Virus record (IMG/VR): IMGVR_UViG_3300032245_001714
From: a virus
Taxonomy: Duplodnaviria > Heunggongvirae > Uroviricota > Caudoviricetes
Length of the DNA: 64,000 nucleotides
Direction: 5' to 3' (one strand)
Shown: positions 3,557-52,639 of the stretch, piece by piece
How positions within the stretch are numbered: position 1 is the first letter of the stretch
Layout of the letters: the number at the start of each line of letters is the position of its first letter
Notes under the pieces: generated by a model
Databases searched by the model: none
What the model was told of the DNA's origin: nothing
The model's input: the letters and a program-made list of their open reading frames with translations, nothing else
Program-made: the position numbers and the translations under genes

Positions 3557-3949
3557 TTAGTGGTGTTTGGAGGCTATCCGATCCATGGCTTGGGCGAGCT
3601 TATAGTCTCTCTCTGTGATCACATCCCCTGCGTCATGGGTTCTGAGCCAGCACTGGACGGTCTTGAAGATGTTGGTCCACTTGGGGTGGTGATTCATTCG
3701 GTTGCACACCTCTGCGACTTCGTTCATAAATGACATAGCAACGTTGAAGTCTTTGAAATCGTATCTCTTATAGAGCGAGTTGTCTCTCTCTGTCCATCCT
3801 GCAGGAGCTTGGACTGGCATCTCCGTTTCTTTAACAGGCACACATCTAGGCACTCTCCTGCCTCCCTTCATCTTGGTGCCAATCTGTTTGTATCCAGACC
3901 AGCATGGGCCTTTGGCCTCGTCTATGTGGTAGGGTTGTATGTGTTTCAT
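3557..3949 (-). CDS. pterin-4a-carbinolamine dehydratase (PCD/DCoH) domain protein with N-terminal extension
   Basis: The C-terminal half, ...FMNEVAEVCNRMNHHPKWTNIFKTVQCWLRTHDAGDVITERDYKLAQAMD, matches the PCD signature (HHPEW..., TH, G-[IL]-[ST]-x-[RK]-D, LA). Starts MKHIQPY with the upstream motif GATATATAGAGC. Confidence 0.65.
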   Translation of the reverse strand: MKHIQPYHIDEAKGPCWSGYKQIGTKMKGGRRVPRCVPVKETEMPVQAPAGWTERDNSLYKRYDFKDFNVAMSFMNEVAEVCNRMNHHPKWTNIFKTVQCWLRTHDAGDVITERDYKLAQAMDRIASKHH

Positions 3950-3961
3950 GCTCTATATATC
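3950..3961 (-). promoter_or_regulatory. GATATATAGAGC start-proximal motif, minus strand, inside the GC-rich block
   Basis: Reverse complement: gatatatagagc followed by ATG (MKHIQPY). Confidence 0.4.
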
Positions 3962-3998
3962 ATTGGTTCTGGTGGGCGGGTCTCCCTGGGGATTCGAT
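3954..3998. repeat. GC-rich dispersed intergenic repeat, copy 1
   Basis: tatatatcattggttctggtgggcgggtctccctggggattcga. Confidence 0.55.
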
Positions 3999-4036
3999 CC
4001 CAAATGACTCCACATATGCTCTGTGATATATAGCTT

Positions 4037-4258
4037 ATGAACATAGATTTTCCAAAGGCCAAATTCTTGTCTAGGTTTGGCAACATCAAGGCCAGCAAGG
4101 AGGAATCCGACCGCATGTTTAGGCAGTTTCTCTGGGAGGAGGAGGAGAGGGAGCGAATGATGTTCACGAGGGAGGCGGAGCAAGCCGGTGGCGCTGGCTT
4201 AACTCAAGACTACATGGAATATGATTATATGATAGATGCAGCAAATTACGTAGACTAA
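4037..4258 (+). CDS. hypothetical protein (73 aa)
   Basis: The ATG is preceded by TGATATATAGCTT. Confidence 0.5.
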   Translation: MNIDFPKAKFLSRFGNIKASKEESDRMFRQFLWEEEERERMMFTREAEQAGGAGLTQDYMEYDYMIDAANYVD

Positions 4259-4274
4259 AAACAAAAAACATAAA

Positions 4275-5045: not shown

Positions 5046-6041
5046 ATGAAACATCTCCTTAATTTTTCGGGTTTCCTCTTTGAGGACAACGGCTCTTCGG
5101 CCGATCAGACACCTTGCACCTACTATCAGGACAAGCAGGGTGACAGTGGTTATAAAAACTTCTGGGCGGAATACAGTAACATGTCACCCGAGGAACAAAA
5201 GACCAAAATGAAGGGGATCACAGCTGGAGTCTTGGATTTGCTTGAGGTCATCAAGGACGAGTACACCAAGTGGTACAGCAATCCTGCCACCATAAAGAAG
5301 TTCACGCAGGAGGAGGATAAGGTTAGAATGAAACTGCTCTCTGAGTACCTGCCTAAAATAACCTGCAAGCTTCACACCAAGCCAGATCCTAATGCCTCTA
5401 AGATGAAGCAGGCATCATGGGGTTGGTTTTCCGCAAAAGCTCCATATATTATAAATGTGGCTCTTTACAACTTCTTCAACGGCAAGTCCACAGGAAACAA
5501 GAGCATAAAGGACACTATCAAACACGAAATGGCCCACGCTATTGACGCCTACTTCTCCGAGAACGGGGTGAGAGCCTATGACGCCACCCACCCTCCAATC
5601 ACAACGCCGGGCGAGTATGAAAGAATCTACCTGATGAATGACAAGGATCAATTTGCAAGACTTAATATTCTCAGAGGCATCATCAAAGCCGGTCCGACTG
5701 ACTCTGGCAAACAGCTGCTGGTTAAGTTTTTAGATGAAGCGAAAAAGGGCAAGATCTCCTCAGAGAGCTTTGATTTTAAAGGCGGTGTTAGTCCCAAAGG
5801 TGACCTTTATCTTTTAAGAATGATCCCCAAGAGGATGGAGGGAGTGAAAGGCAAGGTGCCTTTAGATGTGGCCAAGAAGGTCTACTCCAGCATGATGAAT
5901 AAAGGAGCCATTATGGTGGGAGGCAAAGAAAACTTCAATCTAGAGCAGCTCTTCTCAAATTTTGGTAGGATCATCAACAACGAGATTGTGATCAATATGA
6001 GCGATATAGCCCAATTGAACTACTCATCCAAAAACATGTAA
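5046..6041 (+). CDS. putative zinc metallopeptidase (HExxH) carrying the N-terminal tag (331 aa)
   Basis: HEMAH in IKHEMAHAIDAYF; N-terminus MKHLLNFSGFLFE; ATATATAAGGGC lies immediately upstream of the ATG. Confidence 0.55.
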   Translation: MKHLLNFSGFLFEDNGSSADQTPCTYYQDKQGDSGYKNFWAEYSNMSPEEQKTKMKGITAGVLDLLEVIKDEYTKWYSNPATIKKFTQEEDKVRMKLLSEYLPKITCKLHTKPDPNASKMKQASWGWFSAKAPYIINVALYNFFNGKSTGNKSIKDTIKHEMAHAIDAYFSENGVRAYDATHPPITTPGEYERIYLMNDKDQFARLNILRGIIKAGPTDSGKQLLVKFLDEAKKGKISSESFDFKGGVSPKGDLYLLRMIPKRMEGVKGKVPLDVAKKVYSSMMNKGAIMVGGKENFNLEQLFSNFGRIINNEIVINMSDIAQLNYSSKNM

Positions 6042-6141: not shown

Positions 6142-7392
6142 ATGAAACGTTTACTCACATATCAACTATTTAAAAATCGGTTCGGTCTAAGTCGAGAGCA
6201 GACCAAATGGCTAAACTCTGTTGCTCCTAACCGGTGGAGTTTAAATCCTCAAACCGGTCTCATTGACGTGGACGGAAGTTTTGATTGCAGGAGACAGCTA
6301 CTAACGGATTTCAAGGGATTGCGTTTCGGAGATGTGAGTGGTGATTTCAATTTTCAAGGCAACCAGATCACAAGTCTGGACGGAGCACCTGAGACTGTTG
6401 GTGGGGATTTCCGCTGTCAAGATAATCAGATCACAAGTCTGAAAGGAGCACCGGTGACCGTTAAAGGTAATTTCCTCTGTAGCCATAATCAGATCGCAAG
6501 TCTGGACGGAGCACCGGAGAGTGTTGGTAAGAGTTTCATCTGTAACACTAATAAACTCACAAGTCTGAAAGGAGCACCGCAGACTGTTGGTGGAGAGTTC
6601 GCTTGTTGCTTTAATGAGATCACAAGTCTGGAGGGAGCACCACAGAGTGTTACTTATTTCAATTGTGGCTACAATAAAAAACTCACAAGTCTGAAAGGAG
6701 CACCGGAGAGTGTTGATGGGGATTTCAATTGTGAGCGCTGTGGACTCACAAATCTGGACGGAGCACCCGAGACTGTTGGTGGGGATTTCAAATGTAACCA
6801 TAATCAGCTCACAAGTCTGAAAGGAGCACCAGGGACTGTTAAAGGTGATTTCAAATGTAACCATAATCAGCTCACAAGTCTGGAGGGAGCACCACAGACT
6901 GTTGGTGGGGATAATCCCGACCAGAGTGGGGATTTCGAATGTAACCATAATCAGCTCACAAGTCTAAAGGGAGCACCAGGGACTGTTAAAGGTGATTTCT
7001 TATGTAACGATAATCCACTCACAAGTCTGGAGGGCTCACCAGAAAAAGTTGGAAGATTTTATGCCGGTGAACTGGGAGATTATAATGATCCATTAAATTG
7101 GCCTGAAGGCTGGAACAAAGAGGATAAAGGGTTTACCAAAACTCTCGCATCCAAACTAAAAGAAATTGATGCTCTTGGATCTGATGCAGATAAGAGTAAA
7201 TTAATCTCTATGTTACTGTCACTGACAGAGCCTAATTTACTAGACTATCTGATATCTAATAACCTTTCCCCATCAGATAAGTTCACGATCTATGGAGCAA
7301 TTAAAGCCAATATTCCTGATGTTTGGAATAAGATTAAAGACAAAGTGGATCCTGACGGTGCCACTTCCGATTTGATGGACCTTGGGTTTTAA
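6142..7392 (+). CDS. LRR-like 21-aa repeat protein, family member 1 (about 11 repeats, conserved C-terminal domain ending DLMDLGF)
   Basis: Repeats follow GDFxCxxNxLTSLxGAPxTVx; N-terminus MKRLLTYQLF; GATATATAGG sits 3 nt before the ATG. Confidence 0.8.
   Translation: MKRLLTYQLFKNRFGLSREQTKWLNSVAPNRWSLNPQTGLIDVDGSFDCRRQLLTDFKGLRFGDVSGDFNFQGNQITSLDGAPETVGGDFRCQDNQITSLKGAPVTVKGNFLCSHNQIASLDGAPESVGKSFICNTNKLTSLKGAPQTVGGEFACCFNEITSLEGAPQSVTYFNCGYNKKLTSLKGAPESVDGDFNCERCGLTNLDGAPETVGGDFKCNHNQLTSLKGAPGTVKGDFKCNHNQLTSLEGAPQTVGGDNPDQSGDFECNHNQLTSLKGAPGTVKGDFLCNDNPLTSLEGSPEKVGRFYAGELGDYNDPLNWPEGWNKEDKGFTKTLASKLKEIDALGSDADKSKLISMLLSLTEPNLLDYLISNNLSPSDKFTIYGAIKANIPDVWNKIKDKVDPDGATSDLMDLGF
6340..7040 (+). 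repeat. tandem 63-bp DNA repeats inside the LRR-like gene
   Basis: Near-identical units such as aatcagatcacaagtctgaaaggagcacc...gttggtggggatttc recur about 11 times. Confidence 0.7.
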
Positions 7393-7408: not shown

Positions 7409-8695
7409 ATGAAAAATCTTCTACCTTTCTCCCTATTCGAATCCAAGTCCATCACACCCGAGGATTGGGCTGGCAACTGGCAGGATCTGCCTGAGTGGAA
7501 ACTCCTACAACTAATGGGATTTGAAATCCTTGACACCAACCGCAATGGCACGGTCACTATCGGTAGTTCATACTCTGGGGTCAGACCTAGACTCACCTCT
7601 GCTGGCTATGTGAGAACCGCGGATCAGGGTTATGTGTATGATGATAAGGGGAAAGATCCAATGCCTAGAATGTTAGGCTATGTCATTATGAGATTTGCCA
7701 AGAATGGTATTCCTGGAATTCCCACCAAAGAACTAGATGCCATTATGAAGGCCAATCCTGGACTGGTGAAATACCTGCTGGATTTACCTAAGATTAGGGA
7801 GGAGGTTTTAAGCAGGACTGGGATCACTGACACCACTGGGGATATTTATAAAAAATATGGACTGAGTCCATCCGTAGTTAAATGGTTGGATAAATCCACA
7901 AAAAAAACCTGGAAGATCAATGAAACTACCGGAGAGATCGACGTTGAGGGTAGTTTTATCAATAATACTGATAACAAGCTCGGATTTAGAGGGGTTAAGT
8001 TTGGAGTGGTTGATAGGAATTTTGACATTGGAAATTTAGGACTCACCTCCCTAGAGGGAGCTCCTCGTGAGGTTGGAGGGAATTTCTATTGCGTGGGAAA
8101 TAAAGGGCTCACATCACTCGAATGGGCACCGCAGAAAGTGGGAGGAAATTTCGGTGTCAATAGCAACGGTCTCACCTCGCTCAAGTGGTCACCCCTGGTG
8201 GTTAAAGGTGATTTTTCCTGCCCTAGAAATGAGCTTAAAACATTAGAGGGAGCCCCAAAGAAAGTGATAGGCCGTTTTAATTGCTCTGATAATCCTCTGG
8301 TCTCTCTTTTAGGAGCGCCCGAAAGCCTCGGAGAATTTTCGTTATCAACCTGGAGCACTCCCCCTGATATGAGACTATTGGATTTTCGTAATGGCTGGGA
8401 CAAAAAAGGTGATGTTGAATTTTTAAAAACCATTCTTGCAAAGTTAAAAGAGATTGACGATCTCCCTAATGACAGAACAAAGCCTGTTGATAAATCAAAA
8501 TTAAAATTAATGCTTCTCTCGCTGACTGGTGCAGATAGTGTTGCCGATTTTCTTTTATCTGGCAAGATTCCAGTAGGAGACAAATTCGAAATCTACGGAA
8601 TGGTTAAAGACTCGCTCCCAGAGGTATGGGATAAAGTTAAGGACAAAGTAGATCCAGACGGAGCCACTTCGGATTTGCTTGACCTTGGGTTTTAA
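7409..8695 (+). CDS. LRR-like repeat protein, family member 2
   Basis: Start revised to MKNLLPFSLFES; the track ORF ran in-frame through the upstream gene. LRR-like repeats (GAPREVGGNFYCVGNKGLTSLEWAP...) and a C-terminus ...DPDGATSDLLDLGF. Confidence 0.75.
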   Translation: MKNLLPFSLFESKSITPEDWAGNWQDLPEWKLLQLMGFEILDTNRNGTVTIGSSYSGVRPRLTSAGYVRTADQGYVYDDKGKDPMPRMLGYVIMRFAKNGIPGIPTKELDAIMKANPGLVKYLLDLPKIREEVLSRTGITDTTGDIYKKYGLSPSVVKWLDKSTKKTWKINETTGEIDVEGSFINNTDNKLGFRGVKFGVVDRNFDIGNLGLTSLEGAPREVGGNFYCVGNKGLTSLEWAPQKVGGNFGVNSNGLTSLKWSPLVVKGDFSCPRNELKTLEGAPKKVIGRFNCSDNPLVSLLGAPESLGEFSLSTWSTPPDMRLLDFRNGWDKKGDVEFLKTILAKLKEIDDLPNDRTKPVDKSKLKLMLLSLTGADSVADFLLSGKIPVGDKFEIYGMVKDSLPEVWDKVKDKVDPDGATSDLLDLGF

Positions 8696-8711: not shown

Positions 8712-9620
8712 ATGAAGCATGTAAAATTATTCGAGGATTTTAATATTCCTACATCTCTTACTAAACAACAGATCGATTGGCTGGATAGGTGTACAAAAAA
8801 CTCTAAAGGTTGGAGTCTCAATCCATCAACGGGTCTTGTTGATGTTATGGGGAATTTCAATTGCATTCTTCAAAATCTGGAGGATTTTAAGGGGGTAAAA
8901 TTTGGACGGGTTGAAGGGAATTTCATGTGTCAAAAAAATGAGCTCAAAATTCTGACTGGAGCGCCTCTGAGTGTTGGTGGGAATTTCGATTGTAGCTCTA
9001 ATCCTCTAGAAAGTCTAGATGGATCACCAGAGACTGTTGTGGGAGATTTCAATTGCGATTGGTGTAAACCGCTTAAAAATCTGAAAGGAGCACCTCTGAG
9101 TGTTGGTGGAGATTTCTCCTGTAGCTCTAATAATCTAGAAAGTCTAGATGGAGCACCAGAGACTGTTGGTGGGAATTTCGATTGTCGCTTTAATGATCTT
9201 AAAAATCTGGAAGGAGCACCTCTGACTGTTGGCAAACTATTCAATTGTTCTCATAATATAAAACTTACCTCCTTTGCAGGAGCACCTGAAAGTGTAGGCA
9301 ACTTCGTGGGGGATGAAGGTTTATCCGGGTTATTAAATTGGTCTAAAGGCTGGGACAAAAAAGGTGATGCTGAATTTGCCAAAACCCTCCTTGCAAAGTT
9401 AAAAGAAGTGGACGATTGGAGGAATTTTCAACCTAAATTAAAAGGAATGCTTCTGTCACTGTTAGACGTTGACTGTATACTATCGAATAACTTTTCCCCT
9501 TCGGACAAGTTTGAGATCTATGGAATTATTAAAGAGACCCTGCCGGATGTTTGGTCTAAGGTTAAGGATAAATTAGATCCAGATGGAGCCACTTCCGATT
9601 TGATGGACCTTGGGTTTTAA
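8712..9620 (+). CDS. LRR-like repeat protein, family member 3
   Basis: Start revised to MKHVKLFEDF; repeats GAPLSVGGNFDCSSNPLESLDGSP...; C-terminus ...DPDGATSDLMDLGF. GATATATAGG lies upstream. Confidence 0.75.
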   Translation: MKHVKLFEDFNIPTSLTKQQIDWLDRCTKNSKGWSLNPSTGLVDVMGNFNCILQNLEDFKGVKFGRVEGNFMCQKNELKILTGAPLSVGGNFDCSSNPLESLDGSPETVVGDFNCDWCKPLKNLKGAPLSVGGDFSCSSNNLESLDGAPETVGGNFDCRFNDLKNLEGAPLTVGKLFNCSHNIKLTSFAGAPESVGNFVGDEGLSGLLNWSKGWDKKGDAEFAKTLLAKLKEVDDWRNFQPKLKGMLLSLLDVDCILSNNFSPSDKFEIYGIIKETLPDVWSKVKDKLDPDGATSDLMDLGF

Positions 9621-9660: not shown

Positions 9661-9969
9661 ATGGAGAATCTTAAAAAATATGAGAATTTCAACTCAAATC
9701 AACCTCAATCTGAGGTAAATGAGGGACTTTGGGATAGACTTTTCGGTAAACCATCAATACACCAAGCTGCACACGACTCCTATAGAGGCCAAGGTTGGAG
9801 CGCTACGGGTAGAGATAACGTCTCAAGAGACGAACACAACTACGTTATGTTTGACGGAAAAAAATTCTACTCAGAAGACATAGTTTATGATGACTATAAC
9901 TCAACAGAGCCTATTCCAAGAATAGAAGGAGGAAAGCTGATTATTGCTAATCCAGCTTGGTCGGAATAA
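9661..9969 (+). CDS. hypothetical protein (102 aa)
   Basis: ORF track entry; A-rich sequence upstream. Confidence 0.5.
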   Translation: MENLKKYENFNSNQPQSEVNEGLWDRLFGKPSIHQAAHDSYRGQGWSATGRDNVSRDEHNYVMFDGKKFYSEDIVYDDYNSTEPIPRIEGGKLIIANPAWSE

Positions 9970-10746: not shown

Positions 10747-10757
10747 ATATATAAGAG

Positions 10758-11510
10758 ATGAAGCACATTAATAGCTATAAGGTTTTCGAGAGCGTAGGTA
10801 TTCTCACTTCAGAGCAGGAGGCTTGGTTAAACAAATTAACATTGAAAAATCGCTGGAACGTTAATGAGGACGGACTCGTAGATGTATATGGTGGGTTTTG
10901 GTGCAATGGTCAGGGTCTAACCGATTTCAAAGGTGTAAAATTCGGCCACATCAAGGGTAATTTCATCTGTAATAACAATCTTCTTGAATCCCTTGAAGGA
11001 GCGCCAATAAATGTTGAGGGAAGTTTTGTTTGTGATGGTAATAGACTCACGTCTTTAATCGGAGCACCTATTAGAGTGGGAGAAAGCTTTTGGTGTGACA
11101 AAAATAGAATAGTTTCTTTAGAAGGGCTTCCTGTACATATTGGTGGTAATTTTTGGGCGGCTGGTAATCCTGTCTCAGAAAAAGTTCTTGAAGCAGTGTG
11201 CCGCGAGATGCTAAAGGTAAGAATAAATTCTGATAAAAAAAGTTCTTATACAGAAGCTTTTCTAGAATGTCTTTCCAGCATTCGCATTCCTGATTCAGAT
11301 TTTGCTCTAATGTTATTCACTCTGCCTAGTGATATTTCTGACCCTATATTAGTAAAAAGAGTTAAATCTTACATCGAGAATAATCCGATTAAAAAGATAG
11401 GCTTGGTTTCGGATATAAAGAAAAAAATGCCAAATCTTTATTCTAAAATTTCTGATGAGTTTTCCTCTGATGCTGAACTAATGTCTGACTTAGGAGAATT
11501 GGGATTCTAG
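10758..11510 (+). CDS. LRR-like repeat protein, family member 4 (C-terminus ...SDLGELGF)
   Basis: MKHINSYKVFES; repeats GAPINVEGSFVCDGNRLTSLIGAP...; GATATATAAG lies upstream. Confidence 0.7.
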   Translation: MKHINSYKVFESVGILTSEQEAWLNKLTLKNRWNVNEDGLVDVYGGFWCNGQGLTDFKGVKFGHIKGNFICNNNLLESLEGAPINVEGSFVCDGNRLTSLIGAPIRVGESFWCDKNRIVSLEGLPVHIGGNFWAAGNPVSEKVLEAVCREMLKVRINSDKKSSYTEAFLECLSSIRIPDSDFALMLFTLPSDISDPILVKRVKSYIENNPIKKIGLVSDIKKKMPNLYSKISDEFSSDAELMSDLGELGF

Positions 11511-11713: not shown

Positions 11714-12466
11714 ATGAAACACATTAAGACATATAGATTGTTTGAGTCAAATGTAACCTCAGAACTCACCGAGGAACAGATAGATTTTTTGAATATGGGA
11801 TTCAGCGGGAATCCTTGGTCGATGGAGGATGGATTTATAAATTCGGGATATAGCTTTGATGTTAGTGGGAATAACTTAAAGGACTTTATGGGATTAAAAT
11901 TTGGGAAAGTTTCATATTTTAATTGCTCTAAAAATCTTCTAGAATCACTAGAGGGTAGTCCTAGAAAAGTTTCCCATAGTTTTGATTGTAGTTACAATAA
12001 ACTTGAAACACTCGAAGGATCTCCTGATTTTATTGGAGGAAACTTTGATTGTTCAAACAACAATCTTTTAACACTTCAGGGTGGTCCTAGTCAGGTTTTT
12101 GAAAATTATGATTGTTCTCATAATCTTCTTGAAAATTTAGAAGGACTTCCCCAATCAGGAGAAATCGGATCTTTATATTTTAATAATAACAATGTGGTTT
12201 CTCTCAGAGGTCTTAAAGTAAATGTTGTAACCAGTGGGTTTAACGGTCAGAAAAATCCAATATCAGAATCAGCGATTCATTATATTTTACCCGAGATGCG
12301 CAAGGGTAAATCATATAAGGAGGCGTTATTAGACATATGGACTTTTAGACTAGGAGAGGAGGACAAGTCACTACTCTATCCCGATATAAAAGAGGATTTA
12401 TCTTCTGAAGAGGTTAAAAGACTGGAAATGATGGCTAGATATAACAAATCTAGACACATGTTTTAA
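11714..12466 (+). CDS. LRR-like repeat protein, family member 5 (divergent C-terminus)
   Basis: MKHIKTYRLFES; repeats LESLEGSPRKVSHSFDCSYNKLETLEGSP... Confidence 0.7.
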   Translation: MKHIKTYRLFESNVTSELTEEQIDFLNMGFSGNPWSMEDGFINSGYSFDVSGNNLKDFMGLKFGKVSYFNCSKNLLESLEGSPRKVSHSFDCSYNKLETLEGSPDFIGGNFDCSNNNLLTLQGGPSQVFENYDCSHNLLENLEGLPQSGEIGSLYFNNNNVVSLRGLKVNVVTSGFNGQKNPISESAIHYILPEMRKGKSYKEALLDIWTFRLGEEDKSLLYPDIKEDLSSEEVKRLEMMARYNKSRHMF

Positions 12467-12497: not shown

Positions 12498-13331
12498 ATG
12501 AGCAATATAAAATCATTTTCTGAATTTCTAAACGAAGGAGGGGGAGACTCTCTACTCGCTGCTGCGGGAGCAATGTTTAAAGACCTTATGAGCGATGATG
12601 ACAAAAAATCAGATAGCGAAACCCCAACAACAATAGGTACACATAAACCGGGGGAACAAACATCTATAGATTCAGGCAACGGAACTTCTGGAATAGACGT
12701 TAAGATTGTTCCCGGAAATGATGATTTCACTTTGTATATGCAACATCAACAGGGTATTGCTGGAGCTAAAGGTCTAATTCAGGCTTCTCAAGGAACGGGT
12801 AAGATGGCACCAGATACAATCAAAACAAAAAAAGGAACCAAGTACGCAAATCTGGTAATGAACATCCCTAAGGATAGACCTCAAATCAAAGCTAATCTAA
12901 TAAAAGCTTTAGATGCAGGCGATCAGAAAACTGCTGCTTTGTTATTTTTAAATATGTGGAAAGAGAAATGGGCTTCTAAAGGTAAAGAGGCACTTACCCT
13001 TATCAGTCAGCCAAAGAATGCAGCAGTAAAACAAACTATCCAAAAGTACTGCACAAAATACGGAGTTCCGTTTGAATTTGCAGCAACAGTAGCAAATATA
13101 GAATCTGGATTTAATCCCAATTCGGGCAACAGTAAATACAAAGGGCTATTTGCTCTTAGTCAGAGTGAATTCAGTAAATACGTTCCTGGTGGAAATATTT
13201 ATAATCTGGATAACAATGTAAACGCTGGAATACAATGTCTTAGAAACAACATCAGAGACTTTAAAAAATATTTGGGCCCAGCAACTTTAGCAACATTAAG
13301 ATTAGGATCTTGGGCTAGCTCAATAGCTTAA
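12498..13331 (+). CDS. lytic transglycosylase (SLT-like) domain protein carrying the N-terminal tag
   Basis: ESGFNPNSGNSKYKGLFALSQ fits the E-S...G-L-[MF]-Q SLT motif; N-terminus MSNIKSFSEFLNEG. Confidence 0.6.
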   Translation: MSNIKSFSEFLNEGGGDSLLAAAGAMFKDLMSDDDKKSDSETPTTIGTHKPGEQTSIDSGNGTSGIDVKIVPGNDDFTLYMQHQQGIAGAKGLIQASQGTGKMAPDTIKTKKGTKYANLVMNIPKDRPQIKANLIKALDAGDQKTAALLFLNMWKEKWASKGKEALTLISQPKNAAVKQTIQKYCTKYGVPFEFAATVANIESGFNPNSGNSKYKGLFALSQSEFSKYVPGGNIYNLDNNVNAGIQCLRNNIRDFKKYLGPATLATLRLGSWASSIA

Positions 13332-16040: not shown

Positions 16041-17129
16041 ATGCCTAACATTTTAAACTACACTTCTTTTAGCAATCACATAAAAGAATCCAAAATTAAC
16101 GAGGGATTTATCCCCTCTGGAGATCCAAACTGGCCCACAAATTGGAAGGACATGCCAGAATGGAAGACCCTCCAACAACTTGGTTTTAGCGATGTGACAA
16201 CTTCACGTATGGCTTTAAATCAAACTATATTGCTAAAAAACTTTACCCGAGATCTAGGATACAAGGATGGCATAGTTCTACAAAAAAGTGGCTACATTAG
16301 GGATAAATCGGTTTCTAGTGGTTTCATTAAAAGATATAAAGATTTCCCTGTCGATCTAAAGGATATTTTAGACTACCTAATACAAAGATGGGAGAAAGAT
16401 GTCCAGAGAGACATCAGAACTAAAAACCATGGGCCTTTAACTGATGATCAAATTAAAGCAGTTAATAGAGTTACCAAAGGAAAATGGAAGTATAACGATC
16501 AAACTAAAAAAGTTGACTTTTCATCCTCAGTTGAGGTAAATTCAGATAAAGACATCAGTGATCTCTCTGGTGTTCAGTTCGGAAAGGTCGATGGCTCCTT
16601 TGTTATCAGGGTAAAAGTCAAAGATCTAAATATAGCACCAAGATATGTTGGTGGTAATTTTAGGATTGACAGTAGTGATTTCTTAAAAAATCTAATTGGA
16701 TCCCCTGATGAAATCAGAGGGTCTTTCTCTATATACGGATCAAGAGTTCCTAGGGATCTATCTGGACTGACTCTTCCTGGGAATATTAAAGGTGGATTGT
16801 ATGTGAATTCATCAGATGACTTTGGATTTCATTTTTTCCCGAGCAAATATGACTGGACAATCGAAGGTATAATGAAGGCAATTTTAGAATTCAACGGAGG
16901 TTACAACACAGGTCATCTTCCAATAAAGAATAAGGAAAGTTTGGATTCCTTACTTTCTTATCTTGAGGGTGTAGGTTCAGGACATTATCTATATAAATAT
17001 TTTGAAGATAATCCGTTGGACATCTATCTCCTAGATTCTTTACCTGAGTTAAAGGAAAAAGTTTTAAAGAAATTAGGGATCAAAGACATTGGCAGAATAG
17101 GCAAGATGATAAGATCTGGATTATACTAA
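16041..17129 (+). CDS. LRR-like family member 6 (degenerate repeats, divergent C-terminus)
   Basis: MPNILNYTSFS...KINEG; shares the N-terminal region (...DLSGVQFGKVDGSF...APRYVGGNF); GATATATAGGGT lies upstream. Confidence 0.6.
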   Translation: MPNILNYTSFSNHIKESKINEGFIPSGDPNWPTNWKDMPEWKTLQQLGFSDVTTSRMALNQTILLKNFTRDLGYKDGIVLQKSGYIRDKSVSSGFIKRYKDFPVDLKDILDYLIQRWEKDVQRDIRTKNHGPLTDDQIKAVNRVTKGKWKYNDQTKKVDFSSSVEVNSDKDISDLSGVQFGKVDGSFVIRVKVKDLNIAPRYVGGNFRIDSSDFLKNLIGSPDEIRGSFSIYGSRVPRDLSGLTLPGNIKGGLYVNSSDDFGFHFFPSKYDWTIEGIMKAILEFNGGYNTGHLPIKNKESLDSLLSYLEGVGSGHYLYKYFEDNPLDIYLLDSLPELKEKVLKKLGIKDIGRIGKMIRSGLY

Positions 17130-35008: not shown

Positions 35009-35395
35009 TTAGGAATACTTCATTATTTTCTTAGCCTTTATAAATTTAGGATCTATTTCTCCGTCTAATGTGAATGTTAGTGTTCCCACTCCCTGAAATC
35101 CTGCTCCGAAACTCCATTCCACATCAGTTCCTATCATTTCGCTTAAAAGCTCTTTTAGATCGTCAATGTAATATGAGATTCTTTGGGGTATAAATTCTCC
35201 CATCGGACTATATCTTATGAAGAATTGGTCGAAATCGACACATTCCATTTCATCTAGATTCATACCTCTACCTCTTAGGAATCTATACACAAAATCATTA
35301 GTTTCTCTGTCTGCTATAAATTCCTCTAACATCTCTTTTTGAATTTCCTCCGGAGACGCATCTTCAAAATCCTCGTATATCTTTATTGCTTTCAA
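35009..35395 (-). CDS. hypothetical protein (128 aa), N-terminus MKAIKIYEDFED
   Basis: ORF track entry. Confidence 0.5.
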   Translation of the reverse strand: MKAIKIYEDFEDASPEEIQKEMLEEFIADRETNDFVYRFLRGRGMNLDEMECVDFDQFFIRYSPMGEFIPQRISYYIDDLKELLSEMIGTDVEWSFGAGFQGVGTLTFTLDGEIDPKFIKAKKIMKYS

Positions 35396-49137: not shown

Positions 49138-49779
49138 TTATTCTTCCGTGTGATGATCTTTAGGTAGAACCAGGTGCCTAACAGGTCTACCCTTCATTAT
49201 TTTCAATATCTCATTTAAGCTATAAGGCTCCAGATTGTTTCCGTCTACTCCAACGTCCATTGCTTGTCCTTCGTGGATCTTTAATCTGGGCGGTAGATGA
49301 ACATGTCCATGTAAATGAGGAACCCCTTTATTCATTCCATCCCAACTTGCTATTGGGAAGTGACAGCATACGAATTGGTACTTACCCGTCTCTTTACCCT
49401 CTGGCCTACGGATATCTATAATATCATAGCTACTAACGTGCTTGAAGTACCCCTGTACCCCCTCCTTATTATTTCTAATGTGATGATCGTGATTTCCTAA
49501 AAATAGAATAATGTTTTTGCATACTATTTTATTTCTGAACTCGATAATAGATTCGAATCCACCAAAGCTCCAGTCTCCCATATGAACCAAATAATCGTCC
49601 GGTCCAACGACCGAGTTTATTCCTGCTACTATAGCATCATTCATTTCACCTAGAGAGTGAAAATCCCGTGTACCTCTTCCTTTAGGCCAGTTTGAAACTC
49701 CACGACAAATATTTTGGTGCGAAAAATGCGAATCGGAGGTGAAAAATATGTTCTGATTTTTTTCTAATATAATTTTCAT
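49138..49779 (-). CDS. calcineurin-like metallophosphoesterase
   Basis: TSDSHF (DxH), GDWSFGG, GNHDHH, GHVH. Confidence 0.75.
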   Translation of the reverse strand: MKIILEKNQNIFFTSDSHFSHQNICRGVSNWPKGRGTRDFHSLGEMNDAIVAGINSVVGPDDYLVHMGDWSFGGFESIIEFRNKIVCKNIILFLGNHDHHIRNNKEGVQGYFKHVSSYDIIDIRRPEGKETGKYQFVCCHFPIASWDGMNKGVPHLHGHVHLPPRLKIHEGQAMDVGVDGNNLEPYSLNEILKIMKGRPVRHLVLPKDHHTEE

Positions 49780-49782
49780 TTT

Positions 49783-50922
49783 TTAATCTTTTTTAATCCA
49801 TTTTGAATCCACTGGTATTTCTTCCTCTCTATTCCAAAATGGCTTTTGATACTTTGGTTTTACTATCTTCCAGATTATATGATCGTATTTCTTTCCGTCC
49901 CACATAGCAAAACATATGGATCTTATGCTGGGCTCAACATTACAAAATTCTAGATGTTCAGCAAATTCTTTCTTAGTAGGCTCATTCTCTCGATCCCAAT
50001 ATCTTCCATATCTAAAATACTCATAGATCTTTTCCGCTCTTTCCTCGACTTTACATCGGTGATATTCTAGACTGTGTATTGTTTTCTTAACCCACTTGTC
50101 AAATTCGTCAGGAACTCTTTCTAGAAATTCTTCAATGTTTCTTCCTTCTTTTAAAAGCTCCCAGATGTCGACATTCGAGAAATTGGTCAATAGTCGATGC
50201 AATCTAACATAATCTTCGCCTTTGATCTTCATTCTAAGTCCGGATTTGAATTTAACAACAAATCCCTCAGATTCTCCGTCTATCATTTTCTTAAGCTTCT
50301 TATAATCGTCTATCCCATCGTACTTCTTAACCATCTTAAATCCCAAGTTGTTATATAAATTTACGAATCTAATACCCTCTAAATGTATGCTATTATGGTG
50401 GATTCTAAGTTCATAACCATCTTTGTTATCAATTACCCCAAGAAGTATTAAGTCCTCATAGTCATAGTTGCACACGATCCTGTTTTCGGGATAGATGATC
50501 TCGAACAGATAGGTAAATCCTGGGATCAGTCTCTCATATCTGTATTTTTTTAGGATTTCTCTACCCCTAATTGCCTGCTCAGATGCAAAAGATCCTCTGG
50601 TCGCTAAGTGCCACTCATCGGCATAATGGAAAAGTATGCCTAGAGACCCGTCCAATTTTTCGAAAACCTCGAATTCCTCATTAGGTATTTCCTCTGGCTT
50701 ATGCTCCTCCATGTTAAAAAACTTGGGGAATGGTTTAGCAATAACATTTCCCTCCCGGTCTAAAACAGTGCCTCTCATATTTAAAGTGATCTCGTCCCAA
50801 GACTCCGTGAACTGACATTCCCTTGAATAATTATAGATATCAAGCGGTAATGTCGGGTGTGGATTCCTTTCTAAAAGACCCCTCTGGATATAGGCGTTAA
50901 GAGTGTTTAAATCGTATTTCAT
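49783..50922 (-). CDS. RNA ligase, T4 Rnl1-like
   Basis: Motif I EKLDGSL, compared with T4 RnlA KEDGSL; 379 aa against T4 Rnl1 at 374 aa. Confidence 0.6.
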   Translation of the reverse strand: MKYDLNTLNAYIQRGLLERNPHPTLPLDIYNYSRECQFTESWDEITLNMRGTVLDREGNVIAKPFPKFFNMEEHKPEEIPNEEFEVFEKLDGSLGILFHYADEWHLATRGSFASEQAIRGREILKKYRYERLIPGFTYLFEIIYPENRIVCNYDYEDLILLGVIDNKDGYELRIHHNSIHLEGIRFVNLYNNLGFKMVKKYDGIDDYKKLKKMIDGESEGFVVKFKSGLRMKIKGEDYVRLHRLLTNFSNVDIWELLKEGRNIEEFLERVPDEFDKWVKKTIHSLEYHRCKVEERAEKIYEYFRYGRYWDRENEPTKKEFAEHLEFCNVEPSIRSICFAMWDGKKYDHIIWKIVKPKYQKPFWNREEEIPVDSKWIKKD

Positions 50923-51088
50923 CTCGCATTTTTCATTGTATCCTAAAATTAATCAATATTCCCGTGTTAAAAAAACAAATTGGCCATTTTTTTTGATATA
51001 TAGGGCATAAAATTAAGACTTTCCTCAGAAACATCTTAATTTTTAATTCTAAAAACAACGATATATAAAACAAACAAAAAATAAAAAA

Positions 51089-52639
51089 ATGGGTAAGAAA
51101 ATTTACAACTTTGATGACTTCGTTAACGAGTCATATGTTAGCGAGGGATTATTTTCCTGGTTCAAGAAAAACGTAATGGACCGACTAACTGGATGGACAA
51201 AAAGCTTTTATCAGGCTTTAGAAAATGGCCTAATCAAAACAATTCCAAGTGGACCTAAAAAAGGTAAGCCTGTAGCTATGCTATTTGTTCCTGAAAATGG
51301 ACCTATAGATAAGCAAATAGCAGAATTCTACGGAACAAAAGCTAATGAATCCCAGGAGATTGAAGAAGCTGTGGTTCCCTTAGAATACACTGAAGAAGAT
51401 CAAAGCGTTAGAAATATCAATGCTGAAGATCTTATGGAAGAGATAATGGAGCTTTACGAAGCTAAAGTTTCCGGTGGAAGAGCAAAACCCATATTTATAT
51501 ACGGAGCACCTGGTATCGGTAAAACCCAGATAGTTGGACAAGCCGCTACATCTTTAGGCGTTCCTCTTTTAAATCTTGACCTACAATTTATGGGACCTGA
51601 AGATTTCATCGGGGTTCCTGTTCAAGTGGACATAAAAAAACCGGAATTCTCTGAAGTAGAGGATGAAACAACTGGTGAGAAAACGATGGTGGTAAAAGAT
51701 TACGGTGCTGGTTTTACAAGATCAAATCCTCCTTCTATTTTGCCTAGGGATAATGGAGCTAATGGTAAAGGTGGTATTATATTCATGGACGAAGCAAATA
51801 GAGCAAACCCTATTGTTTTAAGATCTCTAATGCAATTCGTTCAAATGGGTAGAATTGGAGATTATCAGCTTCCTACAAAATGGATTATAGTAGCTGCTGG
51901 TAATAGACCTGCAGAAGCAGAAGTTGCAGAATTTGACTTTGCGTTTGCTGATCGTTTCACAATTGTGAATTACGTTCCTGAATTGGGAATAGATCCAAGC
52001 GGAGCAATCACGGGGGGTTGGGCTAAATGGGCTTCTTCATCAGGAAAGATCCTTCCTGAATTAATTTACTTCCTTGCTGATAACAGAGAGTTATTCCACA
52101 GATTGGACACAGAAAAGAAAGTGCTAAACTACCCAACTCCTAGATCTTGGGCAGATGGAGCATTAGTTCTGAATGACTATATGAGAAACAAGGGACTTAG
52201 CTCTTGGAGAGACGTTCCGGCTCAAAAGATTAAGAACATCTTCTTCGATCAGGTTGGACCTCAAGCAGCTGGAAAATTTGCTGACTTCCTAGACATTCTA
52301 AGAAAAGCATCTGATTCTGATATCGAAGAAATGCTTACTGATCCAGATGGTGCTAGAATTATTCCTGAATTCAAGAAGGAGAAAAGATTCTTATTTGGTC
52401 TTATCCAAACACTTATAAATAAAGTACCAGACGGTGATGCACAGAAGCTATTGAGCATAGTTAAGTACATTAGCAGATATGGTCAATATGAAGTTCTTAC
52501 GTGGCTTCTAAAGAGAATTTACGACAAATTCCCAGAATTCGGAAAATTTGAGGCTTCTTACAAGGATGAGCCAGGATGGGAATACAGAAAAGAGGCAGTT
52601 GAGATAGTTAGACAAGGAAAGAAAGAACAAGGACTATAA
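51089..52639 (+). CDS. MoxR/CbbQ-like AAA+ ATPase
   Basis: GAPGIGKTQ Walker A, IIFMDEANRA Walker B, AAGNRP sensor; N-terminus MGKKIYNFDDFVNES. Confidence 0.75.
   Translation: MGKKIYNFDDFVNESYVSEGLFSWFKKNVMDRLTGWTKSFYQALENGLIKTIPSGPKKGKPVAMLFVPENGPIDKQIAEFYGTKANESQEIEEAVVPLEYTEEDQSVRNINAEDLMEEIMELYEAKVSGGRAKPIFIYGAPGIGKTQIVGQAATSLGVPLLNLDLQFMGPEDFIGVPVQVDIKKPEFSEVEDETTGEKTMVVKDYGAGFTRSNPPSILPRDNGANGKGGIIFMDEANRANPIVLRSLMQFVQMGRIGDYQLPTKWIIVAAGNRPAEAEVAEFDFAFADRFTIVNYVPELGIDPSGAITGGWAKWASSSGKILPELIYFLADNRELFHRLDTEKKVLNYPTPRSWADGALVLNDYMRNKGLSSWRDVPAQKIKNIFFDQVGPQAAGKFADFLDILRKASDSDIEEMLTDPDGARIIPEFKKEKRFLFGLIQTLINKVPDGDAQKLLSIVKYISRYGQYEVLTWLLKRIYDKFPEFGKFEASYKDEPGWEYRKEAVEIVRQGKKEQGL

What the first reader, a model, noticed from the sequence alone, without database searches (positions are those of the whole stretch)
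3557..52639. At least 20 unrelated proteins share an N-terminal ~12-residue tag resembling the T4 capsid-targeting sequence
Unrelated ORFs begin with a common leader. Examples are MKHIKTYRLFES, MKHINSYKVFES, MKHVKLFEDFN, MKRILDFKIFES, MKKILNFKELFEA, MEHILLFESF, MKHIKEYQEFTQE, MKHIQIFEAY, MKKVKTFSDYIEG, MQNIHSYKDFINEA, MTKIKSFLDFRLDE, MSNIKSFSEFLNEG, MGKKIYNFDDFVNES, MSQLLKFKNFINENE, MKAIKIYEDFEDA, MKFLKKYDEWIVEE, MINLLNFEKWTEINEG, MPNILNYTSFS..KINEG, MKHLLNFSGFLFED, MDNILEFQSF, MKYLSLFETY and MKHIQPYHIDE. The consensus is M-K-x-[IL]-[KL]-x-[FY]-x-x-[FW]-x-[ED]. Host-like enzymes in the window (ClpP, SmpB, GalE, Fpg, TerC, the ligases) lack it. The tag is conserved at the amino-acid level with variable codons, and the aromatic i / i+3 spacing suggests an amphipathic helix. 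It resembles the T4 capsid-targeting sequence MKTYQEFIAE, which directs internal proteins such as IPI-III and Alt into the prohead and is removed by the prohead protease after Glu. Tagged proteins here include a CHAP peptidase, two lytic transglycosylases, HExxH peptidases and the LRR-like family. The inference is an unusually large arsenal of packaged, host-injected proteins.
Basis: partly seen in the sequence, partly recalled or inferred. Interest (0 to 1): 0.85.

Follow-up and report, generated by a model that had tools for sequence, protein, structure and literature searches.

The report
T4-like capsid-address tag on many phage proteins
About a quarter of the genes in this uncultured freshwater phage fragment begin with the same short peptide, which matches in its key residues the tag that phage T4 uses to load proteins into its head and then cut off, so this phage probably packages and injects an unusually large and varied set of proteins.

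Summary
So 27 of about 100 ORFs begin M-K-x-[ILV]-x-x-[FY]-x-x-[FYW], against about 0.3 expected (P about 1e-36). Conservation is at the protein level, because synonymous and I/L/V codons vary. 25 of 27 tags end in [LIV]-x-E.

These are the determinants mapped experimentally in the T4 IPIII capsid-targeting sequence: aromatics at i and i+3 for targeting, and I-x-E for gp21 cleavage. Here they are preceded by three extra residues.

The window has no head genes. However:
- Relatives carrying the tag have a T4-type portal, a Peptidase_S77 protease-scaffold fusion and a Gp23 capsid protein. These include the 462-kb phage LR756500.1 and IMG/VR contigs picked by the tag pattern alone.
- In several of those contigs, tagged genes lie directly beside the head genes.
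- AlphaFold leaves the tag disordered, outside the fold.
- Some family members lack the tag altogether.
- Tagged genes share a non-host promoter-like motif.

Best reading (about 0.65): a prohead-targeting propeptide that is cleaved off. This is a new variant of a known mechanism, used on an unprecedented scale. Packaging itself is untested. The ClpP gene is an ordinary ClpP and is unlikely to be the prohead protease.

The parts
1699..2238 (-). Tagged ORF, 179 aa, MRRIKTFREINE|Y. It lies in the 50% GC segment.
   Evidence: no Pfam hit
3557..3949 (-). Tagged ORF, 130 aa, MKHIQPYHIDE|A, followed by a pterin-4a-carbinolamine dehydratase domain (residues 47-124).
   Evidence: PF01329 5e-25; GATATATAG at 3953-3961, 3 nt before the ATG
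5046..6041 (+). Tagged ORF, 331 aa, MKHLLNFSGFLFE|D. Contains HEMAH.
   Evidence: AATATATAA at 5033-5041
6142..7392 (+). Tagged ORF, 416 aa, MKRLLTYQLFKN (no [LIV]xE). LRR-like family. C-terminus ends ...SDLMDLGF.
   Evidence: GATATATAG at 6129-6137
7409..8695 (+). Tagged ORF, 428 aa, MKNLLPFSLFE|S. LRR-like family. C-terminus ends ...SDLLDLGF.
   Evidence: GATATATAG at 7396-7404
8712..9620 (+). Tagged ORF, 302 aa, MKHVKLFE|D. LRR-like family. C-terminus ends ...SDLMDLGF.
   Evidence: GATATATAG at 8699-8707
9661..9969 (+). Tagged ORF, 102 aa, MENLKKYENFNSNQPQSEVNE|GLW.
   Evidence: GATATATAG at 9624-9632
10758..11510 (+). Tagged ORF, 250 aa, MKHINSYKVFE|S. LRR family. C-terminus ends ...SDLGELGF.
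   Evidence: GATATATAA at 10746-10754
11714..12466 (+). Tagged ORF, 250 aa, MKHIKTYRLFE|S. BspA-type LRR protein.
   Evidence: 120 best homologues listed, 63 of them tagged. AF2 mean pLDDT is 91.8, but residues 1-13 are below 50 and unstructured.
12498..13331 (+). Tagged ORF, 277 aa, MSNIKSFSEFLNE|G, with a C-terminal SLT lytic transglycosylase domain.
   Evidence: PF01464 6e-7
16041..17129 (+). Tagged ORF, 362 aa, MPNILNYTSFSNHIKE|SKINE|G.
   Evidence: GATATATAG at 16029-16037
17145..17831 (+). Tagged ORF, 228 aa, MKKILNFKELFE|A (aromatics at i/i+4). C-terminus ends ...ADLGDLGF.
18967..19440 (-). Tagged ORF, 157 aa, MKYLSLFE|T.
   Evidence: GATATATAC 4 nt upstream
19492..19992 (+). Tagged ORF, 166 aa, MEHILLFE|S. 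C-terminus ends ...ADLGELGF.
   Evidence: GATATATAG at 19477-19485
20010..21050 (+). Tagged ORF, 346 aa, MKRILDFKIFE|S. LRR family. C-terminus ends ...ADLADLGF.
21071..21499 (+). Tagged ORF, 142 aa, MKHIQIFE|A. It sits inside an operon and has no promoter motif of its own.
21501..22325 (+). Tagged ORF, 274 aa, MQNIHSYKDFINE|A, followed by an RNase_T/DnaQ-type exonuclease domain from residue 36.
   Evidence: PF00929 3e-8
22325..22810 (+). Tagged ORF, 161 aa, MKKVKTFSDYIEG (P3 is not L/I/V). Contains HELIH.
27453..28253 (+). Tagged ORF, 266 aa, MTKIKSFLDFRLDE|V, with a CHAP peptidase domain.
   Evidence: PF05257 6e-9
28254..28958 (+). Tagged ORF, 234 aa, MKHIKEYQEFTQEYVLNE|GLG, with a C-terminal SLT domain.
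   Evidence: PF01464 6e-10
29637..30068 (-). Tagged ORF, 143 aa, MINLLNFEKWTEINE|G.
   Evidence: GATATATAA at 30072-30080
30407..30646 (+). Tagged ORF, 79 aa, MKNLTPFESFDSDLQE|N.
30696..31166 (+). Tagged ORF, 156 aa, MDNILE|FQSF.
34396..34998 (-). Tagged ORF, 200 aa, MKFLKKYDEWIVE|E.
   Evidence: AATATATAA at 35002-35010
35009..35395 (-). Tagged ORF, 128 aa, TTG start, (M)KAIKIYE|DFED.
35404..36279 (-). Tagged ORF, 291 aa, MSQLLKFKNFINE|NEVPNE|G.
   Evidence: GATATATAG at 36302-36310
51089..52639 (+). Tagged ORF, 516 aa, MGKKIYNFDDFVNE|SYVSE|GLF. MoxR-type AAA ATPase, followed by untagged DUF2201 peptidase/VWA genes.
   Evidence: PF07728. The LR756500.1 homologue aligns ...ELNEGLF, and its DUF2201 partner is tagged MKYIKSYENFIFEN. 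GATATATAA at 51060-51068.
63430..64000 (-). 3' part of a 210-aa tagged gene. Its start (MKRISKFTDFSLNN) lies 62 nt beyond the window end.
   Evidence: L013 8680-9312 on the same ENA scaffold

Best explanation
The shared leader is a T4-type capsid (prohead) targeting propeptide.

Proposed mechanism:
- The aromatic pair ([FY] at position 7 and [FYW] at position 10) binds the protein to the scaffolding core while the prohead assembles.
- The [LIV]-x-E that ends the tag is the site at which a gp21-family (Peptidase_S77) prohead protease cuts it off. The mature protein is then left free inside the head and leaves with the DNA at the next infection.
- The tag exists in two registers. Variant A is [FY]-x-[LIV]-F-E|[SA], as in MKHIKTYRLFE|S. 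Variant B is [FY]-x-x-F-[LIV]-N-E|[GAS], as in MSNIKSFSEFLNE|G.
- The genes are transcribed from a phage-specific promoter rather than a host-type one. This is probably a middle or late promoter, so the proteins would be made when heads are built.

The cargo in this window would be at least 27 different proteins: three peptidoglycan hydrolases, a family of LRR proteins, an exonuclease, a MoxR ATPase, a pterin dehydratase, two HExxH proteins and many proteins of unknown function.

Shown: the motif, its protein-level conservation, its modularity, and its co-occurrence with T4-type head genes in relatives. Inferred: binding to the core, cleavage, packaging, injection and the timing of expression.
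For: 1. The motif matches the functional determinants of the T4 CTS. T4 ipII/ipIII read MKTYQEFIAE|A and ipI reads MKTFKEF..ITE|A, taken from the T4 genome. Targeting maps to residues 4 and 7, processing to residues 8 and 10, and the gp21 site is L/I-x-E (PMC9026906). The window has the aromatic pair at i/i+3 in 23 of 27 tags, and by my reading of the 27 N-termini [LIV]-x-E ends 25 of 27 tags. The automated scan of residues 8-25 gave 20/27 tagged against 16/70 untagged, P = 5e-6.

2. Tag-bearing relatives are T4-type.
- LR756500.1 (462 kb) has about 35-45 tagged genes (MKYIKEYEEFILE..). It also has gp17, gp18 and gp20 homologues, a Peptidase_S77 protease fused to a scaffold-like coiled-coil region (42.6 bits, cutoff 27), and a Gp23 capsid protein (118 bits).
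- IMG/VR loci were selected only by the DNA pattern of the tag. In them, 260 of 996 ORFs are tagged.
- Gp23 and S77-like genes occur in four of these loci (L136, L144, L178, L192), and portals in two (L144, L192).
- In L178 and L144, arrays of tagged genes follow the capsid gene on the same strand. In L192, tagged genes sit next to the portal.

3. The cultured Chryseobacterium phage MA9V-2 shows the T4 register. MKTFTYFINE|A lies between the portal and the S77 protease, MKNFFSFINE|A lies in the head module, and its capsid propeptide contains WSEFINE|A. The LR756500.1 capsid protein starts MIKLINE|A. So [LI]-N-E occurs in proteins expected to be substrates of the protease.

4. The tag is a separate module. 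Some LRR homologues start directly at the next conserved block. AF2 leaves residues 1-13 disordered beside a fold with pLDDT above 90. After masking the tag, 376 tagged proteins fall into 185 BLAST-unrelated clusters.

5. The tag is specific to phages. The pattern hits 83 stretches in IMG/VR, many on contigs of 100-476 kb. A reversed-codon control gave no hits. Only 14 single hits were found in 596 Gb of bacterial genomes.

6. The contig has an ordinary untagged endolysin (GH19 plus a PG-binding domain), while SLT x2 and CHAP carry the tag. This fits hydrolases used for entry.

7. ATATATA[AGC] lies upstream of 16/27 tagged genes but only 5/75 untagged genes (P = 7e-8), and also upstream of the endolysin. 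The host-type TAnnTTTG box lies upstream of 0/27 tagged genes but does precede the phage sigma-factor gene.
Against: - There are no proteomic or N-terminal data for any tagged protein.
- No portal, protease or capsid gene was found in the window or in the roughly 8-10 kb recovered on each side. The link to a gp21-type protease therefore rests on relatives. The closest is a relative whose endolysin is 73% identical and which has a Gp23 gene 1.1 kb away (L057).
- Twenty-seven different cargo proteins in 64 kb far exceeds anything documented for T4.
- Tagged proteins are not basic (median pI 5.9, half of them below 6), unlike the DNA-associated T4 internal proteins.
- Some cargo looks like ordinary cytoplasmic enzymes: a pterin dehydratase and a MoxR ATPase, and NUDIX and PNK phosphatase in relatives.
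- The tag carries three residues (x-[ILV]-x) that T4 lacks, and these are themselves conserved. Recognition may therefore differ.
- Tenacibaculum phage PTm1 has the same head module but showed no tags in the 50 kb inspected.
- Two tags lack an [LIV]-x-E.
Confidence: 0.65

Rival explanations
1. The tag is an address or docking peptide for a destination other than the inside of the capsid. Possible destinations are another virion structure (tail, baseplate or head fibres), the membrane-bound assembly site, a phage-made compartment, or a shared chaperone such as the tagged MoxR ATPase. The Glu-terminated motif would then be a binding feature rather than a cleavage site.
For: - The three extra conserved residues (K-H-I-K) are absent from the T4 CTS.
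- In six IMG/VR loci, tagged LRR arrays lie directly downstream of the tail-sheath gene rather than the head genes.
- Many tagged proteins carry a second conserved motif at the C-terminus (...SADLGELGF here...NADDFGFFDN in LR756500.1). This suggests a second interaction.
- The cargo is acidic.
Against: - The conserved positions coincide with the residues shown to matter for capsid targeting and for gp21 processing in T4.
- The same [LI]-N-E motif occurs in capsid-protein propeptides of related phages.
- Tagged genes sit inside head modules.
- No tubulin, chimallin or other compartment genes were seen.
Confidence: 0.15
2. The tag is a degradation or timing signal (an N-terminal degron). It would be read by the phage-encoded ClpP (26314-26991) together with a host unfoldase, so that a whole class of phage proteins is removed at a set time.
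For: - A genuine ClpP and SmpB are encoded in the middle of the tagged region.
- The tag is disordered and exposed.
Against: - ClpP/SmpB have a host-type promoter and belong to a different class from the tagged genes.
- Tags occur in many loci and phages where no ClpP was seen.
- The motif does not resemble known ClpX/ClpA N-degrons (from my own knowledge, not tested).
- This reading does not explain the [LIV]-x-E, the linkage to head genes, or the T4 match.
Confidence: 0.05
3. The conservation reflects translation initiation on leaderless or near-leaderless mRNAs rather than a property of the protein. It would be a nucleotide-level start-region feature.
For: - For about 12 tagged genes the promoter-like motif ends only 3-6 nt before the ATG, so the transcripts may be leaderless.
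- Codons 2-5 are A-rich.
Against: - Third codon positions are the least conserved.
- I/L/V and F/Y/W substitutions use unrelated codons.
- The tag is equally present on genes inside operons without the motif (21071, 21501, 22325, 28254), and on LR756500.1 genes with leaders of 10-25 nt.
- The pattern is frame-specific: 23 of the 29 strict six-frame hits are at gene starts.
Confidence: 0.04
4. The tag is a passively inherited or recombination-spread 5' cassette (promoter plus first codons). It would move between genes in hyperplastic regions and have no function of its own in the protein.
For: - Tagged genes occur in tandem arrays.
- Promoter plus ATG AAA contexts are repeated nearly identically (for example 3960(-) and 4925(-)).
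- A decayed copy, 'ATG AAA AGA ATA TAG', lies at 4914(-).
Against: - There is strong purifying selection on specific residues, with free synonymous change, across phages ranging from 24% to 50% GC.
- 185 unrelated families keep the tag.
- Tags exist without the promoter.
Confidence: 0.05

Closest known systems
Capsid targeting sequence (CTS) of phage T4 internal proteins IPI, IPII and IPIII, removed by the gp21 prohead protease
   Same: - An N-terminal peptide of about 10-20 residues shared by otherwise unrelated proteins.
- An aromatic pair at i/i+3 followed by L/I-x-E and then a small residue.
- Gp20, gp21-family (S77) and Gp23 head genes in phages that carry the tag.
- Cargo genes clustered in variable regions.

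   Different: - Three extra conserved residues follow Met-Lys (M-K-H-I-K...).
- There are two registers of the cleavage motif, and P2 is often Asn or Phe.
- The tag is on 27 genes in 64 kb and on at least 185 unrelated families in relatives. T4 has three such internal proteins.
- The cargo is not basic and includes enzymes.
- A protease-scaffold fusion replaces separate gp21 and gp22.
- Packaging has not been demonstrated.
N-terminal propeptides of head and ejection proteins in phiKZ-like giant phages (phiKZ gp175, SPN3US gp245, 201phi2-1)
   Same: Many different head-internal proteins (19 processed in 201phi2-1, about 50 head proteins in SPN3US) carry propeptides. These are removed after Glu by a diverged gp21 homologue (PMC9026906; PMC7411985 abstract).
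   Different: - The cleavage motif there is S/A-x-E with no shared N-terminal leader. Here P3 is L/I/V and there is a strict common leader.
- The phage lineage is different. The portal's nearest cultured relatives are jumbo phages of Bacteroidetes.
P1 DarB capsid targeting signal
   Same: An N-terminal signal of fewer than 30 residues is sufficient to load a reporter into the capsid. The cargo is anti-restriction protein delivered with the DNA (PMC9024508).
   Different: The Dar proteins share no consensus with one another, no cleavage motif is involved, and the head-assembly system is unrelated.
T7 gp16 and other ejected virion proteins with a lytic transglycosylase domain (from my own knowledge)
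   Same: An SLT-domain protein is stored in the head and ejected to cut peptidoglycan during entry. This matches the tagged SLT x2 and CHAP proteins here, which sit alongside an untagged endolysin.
   Different: T7 core proteins have no detachable N-terminal address tag and are structural parts of the internal core.

Membership tests
T4-type capsid targeting sequence (CTS) | Located at the extreme N-terminus of proteins that are otherwise unrelated | tested here: met
   27 ORFs in the window. After masking the tag, 376 tagged proteins from the window and relatives form 185 BLAST-unrelated clusters.
T4-type capsid targeting sequence (CTS) | Two aromatic residues spaced i/i+3, which are the targeting determinants (T4 IPIII Y4 and F7) | tested here: met
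   [FY] at position 7 and [FYW] at position 10 in 23/27 tags; the other four are shifted by one residue or lack the second aromatic. The register is displaced by three residues relative to T4.
T4-type capsid targeting sequence (CTS) | An L/I-x-E processing site directly after the targeting residues (T4 I8 and E10) | tested here: met
   By my reading of the 27 N-termini, 25/27 tags end in [LIV]-x-E. The automated scan of residues 8-25 gave 20/27 tagged against 16/70 untagged, P = 5e-6.
T4-type capsid targeting sequence (CTS) | A gp21-family (Peptidase_S77) prohead protease and a scaffolding core encoded by the same phage | tested here: inconclusive
   Not present in the window or in the roughly 8-10 kb flanks. 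Present in the tag-bearing LR756500.1, in IMG/VR loci L136, L144, L178 and L192, and in MA9V-2. A Gp23 gene lies next to the endolysin in a 73%-identical relative.
T4-type capsid targeting sequence (CTS) | The protein is found in the mature virion with the tag removed | not testable with these tools
   Needs virion mass spectrometry or N-terminal sequencing.
T4-type capsid targeting sequence (CTS) | The tag alone suffices to package a foreign protein | not testable with these tools
   Needs a reporter fusion in a cultured tag-bearing phage.
phiKZ-like head propeptides | Cleavage motif S/A/G-x-E with no common leader | tested here: not met
   P3 is L/I/V in 25/27 tags and a strict common leader exists.
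Sec, lipoprotein or Tat signal peptide | A hydrophobic h-region of 10 or more residues after a short charged N-region (twin Arg for Tat) | tested here: not met
   The tags are followed by polar or acidic sequence. Genuine signal peptides in the window (for example 10006, 36784, 38684) look quite different.
   The gene is a canonical ClpP (PF00574, 3e-57). It is flanked by SmpB and an M28 peptidase, and a host-type TAnnTTTG box precedes the upstream ORF on the same strand (26996-27379).

The most novel reading that the evidence does not exclude
This clade of uncultured Bacteroidetes-type T4-like phages uses a proteome-scale capsid address code. Dozens of unrelated proteins per genome are loaded into the head and injected, which would make the virion a multi-enzyme delivery vehicle far more diverse than T4's. 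In this region about a quarter of the genes would be cargo, and relatives add at least 185 families.

The cargo would include repair, nucleotide and metabolic enzymes never reported as virion cargo: an exonuclease, a MoxR ATPase and a pterin dehydratase here, and NUDIX and PNK phosphatase in relatives.

A second, C-terminal acidic-hydrophobic tail (...ADLGELGF or ...ADDFGFFDN) would direct a subset of these proteins to a host target after injection.
Probability: 0.4. Interest if true: 0.85.

Novelty: new variant of a known kind. Interest (0 to 1): 0.7.

Why it matters
If the tag works as in T4, it is a sequence label that identifies the injected proteome of uncultured large phages directly from metagenomes. 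Such proteins are the first phage molecules to meet host defences (T4 IPI* is an anti-restriction protein), and they are otherwise impossible to recognise because most have no known domain. In this dataset the label marks hundreds of candidates.

It would also show that the T4 CTS is an ancient and expandable system. It is shared with jumbo and huge phages of Bacteroidetes, and it offers a natural set of tags for loading foreign proteins into non-coliphage capsids.

The finding is directly testable by virion N-terminomics in any cultured relative.

Tried and rejected
- **Near-identical phage records:** megablast of 20 kb against GenBank phages found nothing. Exact 38-mer and 29-mer searches in IMG/VR and JGI metagenomes also found nothing.
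- **Reaching the head module of this phage:**
  - Look-ups are limited to window proteins, so only about 8-10 kb could be added on each side. Neither flank has head genes.
  - A portal search returned 3209 hits, but none of the 120 listed sat on a contig of this phage's known contig lengths.
  - A search with the capsid C-terminal fragment returned only short fragments.
- **PHROGs on ten large proteins of unknown function** (seven of them tagged): no informative family.
- **Cultured relatives:** Tenacibaculum phage PTm1 showed no tags in the 50 kb inspected. The Vibrio phage LRR homologue starts MCTFEEWFGE and was not followed up.
- **Literature searches:** searches for the motif strings and for CTS-like tags in huge or jumbo phages gave nothing relevant.
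- **Basic charge test:** the idea that the cargo would be basic, like the T4 internal proteins, was not borne out.
- **Rejected:** a nucleotide-level signal, a secretion signal (no hydrophobic core), and ClpP as the prohead protease.
- **Regex false positives:** some regex hits in relatives are natural N-termini of thioredoxin or GT17 proteins, so counts outside the window are approximate.

Full report
**What the window is.** It is part of an uncultured phage genome with about 36% GC.
- The same sequence occurs on ENA lake-metagenome scaffolds of 105,858 and 131,960 bp.
- There is no near-identical record in GenBank phages or IMG/VR.
- Eighty loci with 70-80% identical endolysins came almost entirely from freshwater metagenomes.
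- Nine window proteins have homologues in the 462-kb uncultured phage LR756500.1.
- That phage's portal is closest to the 630-735-kb uncultured phages LR756501-4, the Lak phages of Prevotella, Tenacibaculum phages PTm1/PTm5/pT24, Chryseobacterium phages MA9V-1/2 and Sphingomonas phage PAU. This is the T4-related clade of jumbo and huge phages that mostly infect Bacteroidetes.

**Check of the observation.** A simple non-overlapping ORF set gives 108 ORFs.
I found five more in the window, and a sixth whose start lies 62 nt past the window end.
- The pattern M..[ILVM]..[FYW]..[FYW] occurs at 23 of 108 N-termini and at 2 of 389 internal Met positions. From amino-acid composition the expectation is 0.3, giving a binomial P of 2e-36.
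- The logo is M1, K2 (14/23), [NH]3, [ILV]4 (23/23), [KL]5, x6, [FY]7 (23/23), x8, x9, [FYW]10 (23/23).
- Conservation is at the protein level. Information content at codon position 3 is 0.34 bits, against 0.59 and 0.56 at positions 1 and 2. Position 4 uses seven different codons.

**Anatomy of the tag.** By reading all 27 N-termini I find that 25 end in [LIV]-x-E. The automated scan of residues 8-25 found 20/27, against 16/70 for untagged proteins (P = 5e-6). There are two registers:
- Variant A is [FY]-x-[LIV]-F-E|[SA], as in MKHIKTYRLFE|S.
- Variant B is [FY]-x-x-F-[LIV]-N-E|[GAS], as in MSNIKSFSEFLNE|G and MQNIHSYKDFINE|A.
- Sometimes a spacer separates the tag from the site, as in MPNILNYTSFSNHIKESKINE|G. 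This resembles T4 IPI, MKTFKEFTSTTTPVSTITE|A.

**Comparison with T4.** I read the T4 sequences from the T4 genome. ipII and ipIII begin MKTYQEFIAE|A.
- According to PMC9026906, the first 10 residues of IPIII suffice for packaging.
- Targeting depends mainly on residues 4 and 7 (Y and F).
- Processing depends on residues 8 and 10 (I and E).
- gp21 cuts after L/I-x-E.
- The window tag conserves exactly these four positions in the same spacing, and adds three conserved residues after Met-Lys.

**The tag is a detachable module.**
- In the BspA-type LRR family of ORF 11714-12466, 63 of the 120 best metagenomic homologues carry the tag. Others begin directly at the next conserved block, (L)TxEQxxWL.
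- AlphaFold2 on this protein gives a mean pLDDT of 91.8. Residues 1-13 are below 50 and unstructured.
- In enzymes the tag precedes the domain: RNase_T starts at residue 36, the pterin dehydratase at 47 and CHAP at 64.

**Evidence from relatives.**
- LR756500.1 (24% GC) has about 35-45 genes starting MK[YF]I[KLQ]x[YF]xxF[ILV]xE, clustered in islands.
- It encodes T4-like TerL, tail sheath and portal (phmmer 3e-33 to T4 gp20). It also encodes a 632-aa protein whose N-terminal domain is Peptidase_S77, the gp21 family (42.6 bits, cutoff 27), followed by a long region I read as scaffold-like coiled coil. Next to it is a Gp23 capsid protein (118 bits).
- I scanned IMG/VR with a degenerate DNA pattern for MKHIKx[FY]xxFE. 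It hit 83 stretches, many on contigs of 100-476 kb and often in tandem arrays.
- A control pattern with the same codons in reverse order hit nothing. The real pattern hit only 14 single sites in 596 Gb of bacterial genomes.
- In the IMG/VR loci, chosen only for the tag, 260 of 996 ORFs are tagged.
- Gp23 and S77-like protease-scaffold genes occur in L136, L144, L178 and L192. Portals occur in L144 and L192, a T4-like TerL in one further locus and tail sheaths in eight.
- In L178 the order protease, scaffold, capsid is followed on the same strand by seven tagged ORFs. In L144 four tagged ORFs follow the capsid gene. In L192 two precede the portal.
- The cultured Chryseobacterium phage MA9V-2 has the T4 register itself. 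MKTFTYFINE|A (82 aa) lies between the portal and the S77 protease, where T4 has its core proteins gp67 and gp68. MKNFFSFINE|A lies in the head module. The capsid propeptide contains WSEFINE|A.
- The LR756500.1 capsid protein starts MIKLINE|A. So [LI]-N-E, the commonest end of the window's variant B tags, also occurs in proteins expected to be cut by the prohead protease.
- For the window's own lineage the link is indirect. A relative with a 73%-identical endolysin has the C-terminus of a Gp23 capsid gene 1.1 kb upstream (L057).

**Expression class.**
- RATATATAR occurs 21 times in the window, against 5.2 expected. Nearly all of these sites lie just upstream of an ORF start on the coding strand.
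- ATATATA[AGC] lies within 70 nt upstream of 16/27 tagged genes but only 5/75 untagged genes (P = 7e-8).
- In about 12 cases the motif ends 3-6 nt before the ATG, which suggests leaderless transcripts.
- The motif also precedes the untagged endolysin on the same contig. It resembles the T4 late promoter TATAAATA, although that resemblance is from my own knowledge and was not tested.
- The Bacteroidetes-type -7 box TAnnTTTG precedes none of the tagged genes. It does precede six untagged ones, including the phage sigma-70-family gene (62846-63379) and the ORF at 26996-27379, which lies upstream of ClpP/SmpB on the same strand.
- I infer that tagged genes are not host-polymerase early genes and are probably switched on by a phage factor. 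Tagged genes inside operons lack the motif, so tag and promoter are independent features.

**What the cargo would be.**
- In the window: SLT x2, CHAP, an RNase_T exonuclease, a pterin-4a dehydratase, a MoxR-type AAA ATPase, two HExxH proteins, about six LRR-family proteins and about a dozen with no known domain.
- Across 140 representatives of tagged clusters from all datasets, only a minority hit Pfam. Hits include NUDIX, PNK 3'-phosphatase, GH108, PAP2, LRR, DUF2201 and a DCC1-like oxidoreductase.
- A few of those hits are false positives of my regex, such as thioredoxin and GT17.
- An untagged GH19 endolysin alongside three tagged peptidoglycan hydrolases fits enzymes carried in the virion for entry.

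**Points against, or still open.**
- There is no direct evidence of packaging or cleavage.
- The head module of this phage was not recovered.
- Tagged proteins are not basic.
- The number of cargo species is unprecedented.
- PTm1 has the same head module but no tags in the 50 kb inspected.
- ClpP (26314-26991) is a canonical ClpP beside SmpB and is not a good candidate for the prohead protease.

**Verdict.**
It is now supported by determinant-level identity with the T4 CTS and by genomic linkage to T4-type head genes in relatives. It remains an inference.
- The finding is a new variant of a known mechanism, notable for its scale and for its value as a label of injected proteins in uncultured large phages.

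Noticed in passing
window 6142-7392, 7409-8695, 8712-9620, 10758-11510, 17145-17831, 19492-19992, 20010-21050 (C-termini); LR756500.1 (L016-L025): Seven tagged proteins share a second motif at the extreme C-terminus...[ST][AS]DL[GML][DE]LGF-COOH. In LR756500.1, 14 proteins end in ...NADDFGFFDN or ...ADDFGLI, and 12 of them carry the N-terminal tag. Metagenomic LRR homologues have the motif too. The acidic-then-FG-hydrophobic tail recalls the C-terminal tails of SSB and of ribosomal-stalk P proteins, but that is from memory and was not tested.
   Followed up: partly
window, 21 sites, e.g. 3953-3961(-), 6129-6137(+), 7396-7404(+), 8699-8707(+), 16029-16037(+), 30072-30080(-), 51060-51068(+): The promoter-like motif RATATATAR occurs 21 times against 5.2 expected. 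Nearly all of these sites lie just upstream of an ORF start on the coding strand, often only 3-6 nt before the ATG, so the mRNAs may be leaderless. It is strongly associated with tagged genes (16/27 versus 5/75). The host-type TAnnTTTG box is found instead before the phage sigma-factor gene (62846-63379) and before the ORF at 26996-27379 upstream of ClpP/SmpB.
   Followed up: partly
window 1-4300: This segment has 50% GC against about 36% for the rest. It is nevertheless contiguous with the rest on the ENA scaffold and carries the same promoter motif and two tagged genes. It may have been acquired from a related phage of higher GC.
   Followed up: partly
window 4900-4926 (-): GATATATAGAGC is followed by ATG AAA AGA ATA TAG. 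This is a promoter plus 'MKRI-stop', which looks like the decayed start of a former tagged gene.
   Followed up: yes
window 13954-14055(+), 57184-57290(-), 57722-57814(-): Three Rfam tRNA matches are unusually long (93-107 nt). ARAGORN calls only the last one, as tRNA-Asp with the odd anticodon 'atc'. They could be intron-containing or long-arm tRNAs, or tRNA-like elements.
   Followed up: no
L112 1656-3299 (ENA ERZ28593348, same project as the window's contigs); P0252-P0371: In related freshwater T4-like contigs the Gp23 capsid gene carries an in-frame TAA (...NEIHR*TMRGGANF...). The 3' part is therefore called as a separate ORF of about 127 aa, and many of the 120 listed fragments have that length. 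This could be read-through, recoding or a genuinely split capsid gene.
   Followed up: partly
window 25885-26991 (-): The phage encodes a full-length ClpP (PF00574, 3e-57) and SmpB (PF01668, 1e-48) side by side, next to an M28 peptidase. No tmRNA was detected in the window.
   Followed up: partly
L196 (Chryseobacterium phage MA9V-2, OR513085.1) 12897, 16687, 20818: This cultured jumbo phage has T4-register CTS-like N-termini, MKNFFSFINEA and MKTFTYFINEA, inside its head module. Its capsid propeptide contains WSEFINEA. It would be a practical system for testing the cleavage prediction.
   Followed up: partly
L006 25524-30016 (LR756500.1): The T4-like large terminase of LR756500.1 is split into three ORFs (phmmer hits to gp17 at 193332-197824). 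The intervening coding sequence suggests inteins or homing-endonuclease insertions.
   Followed up: no
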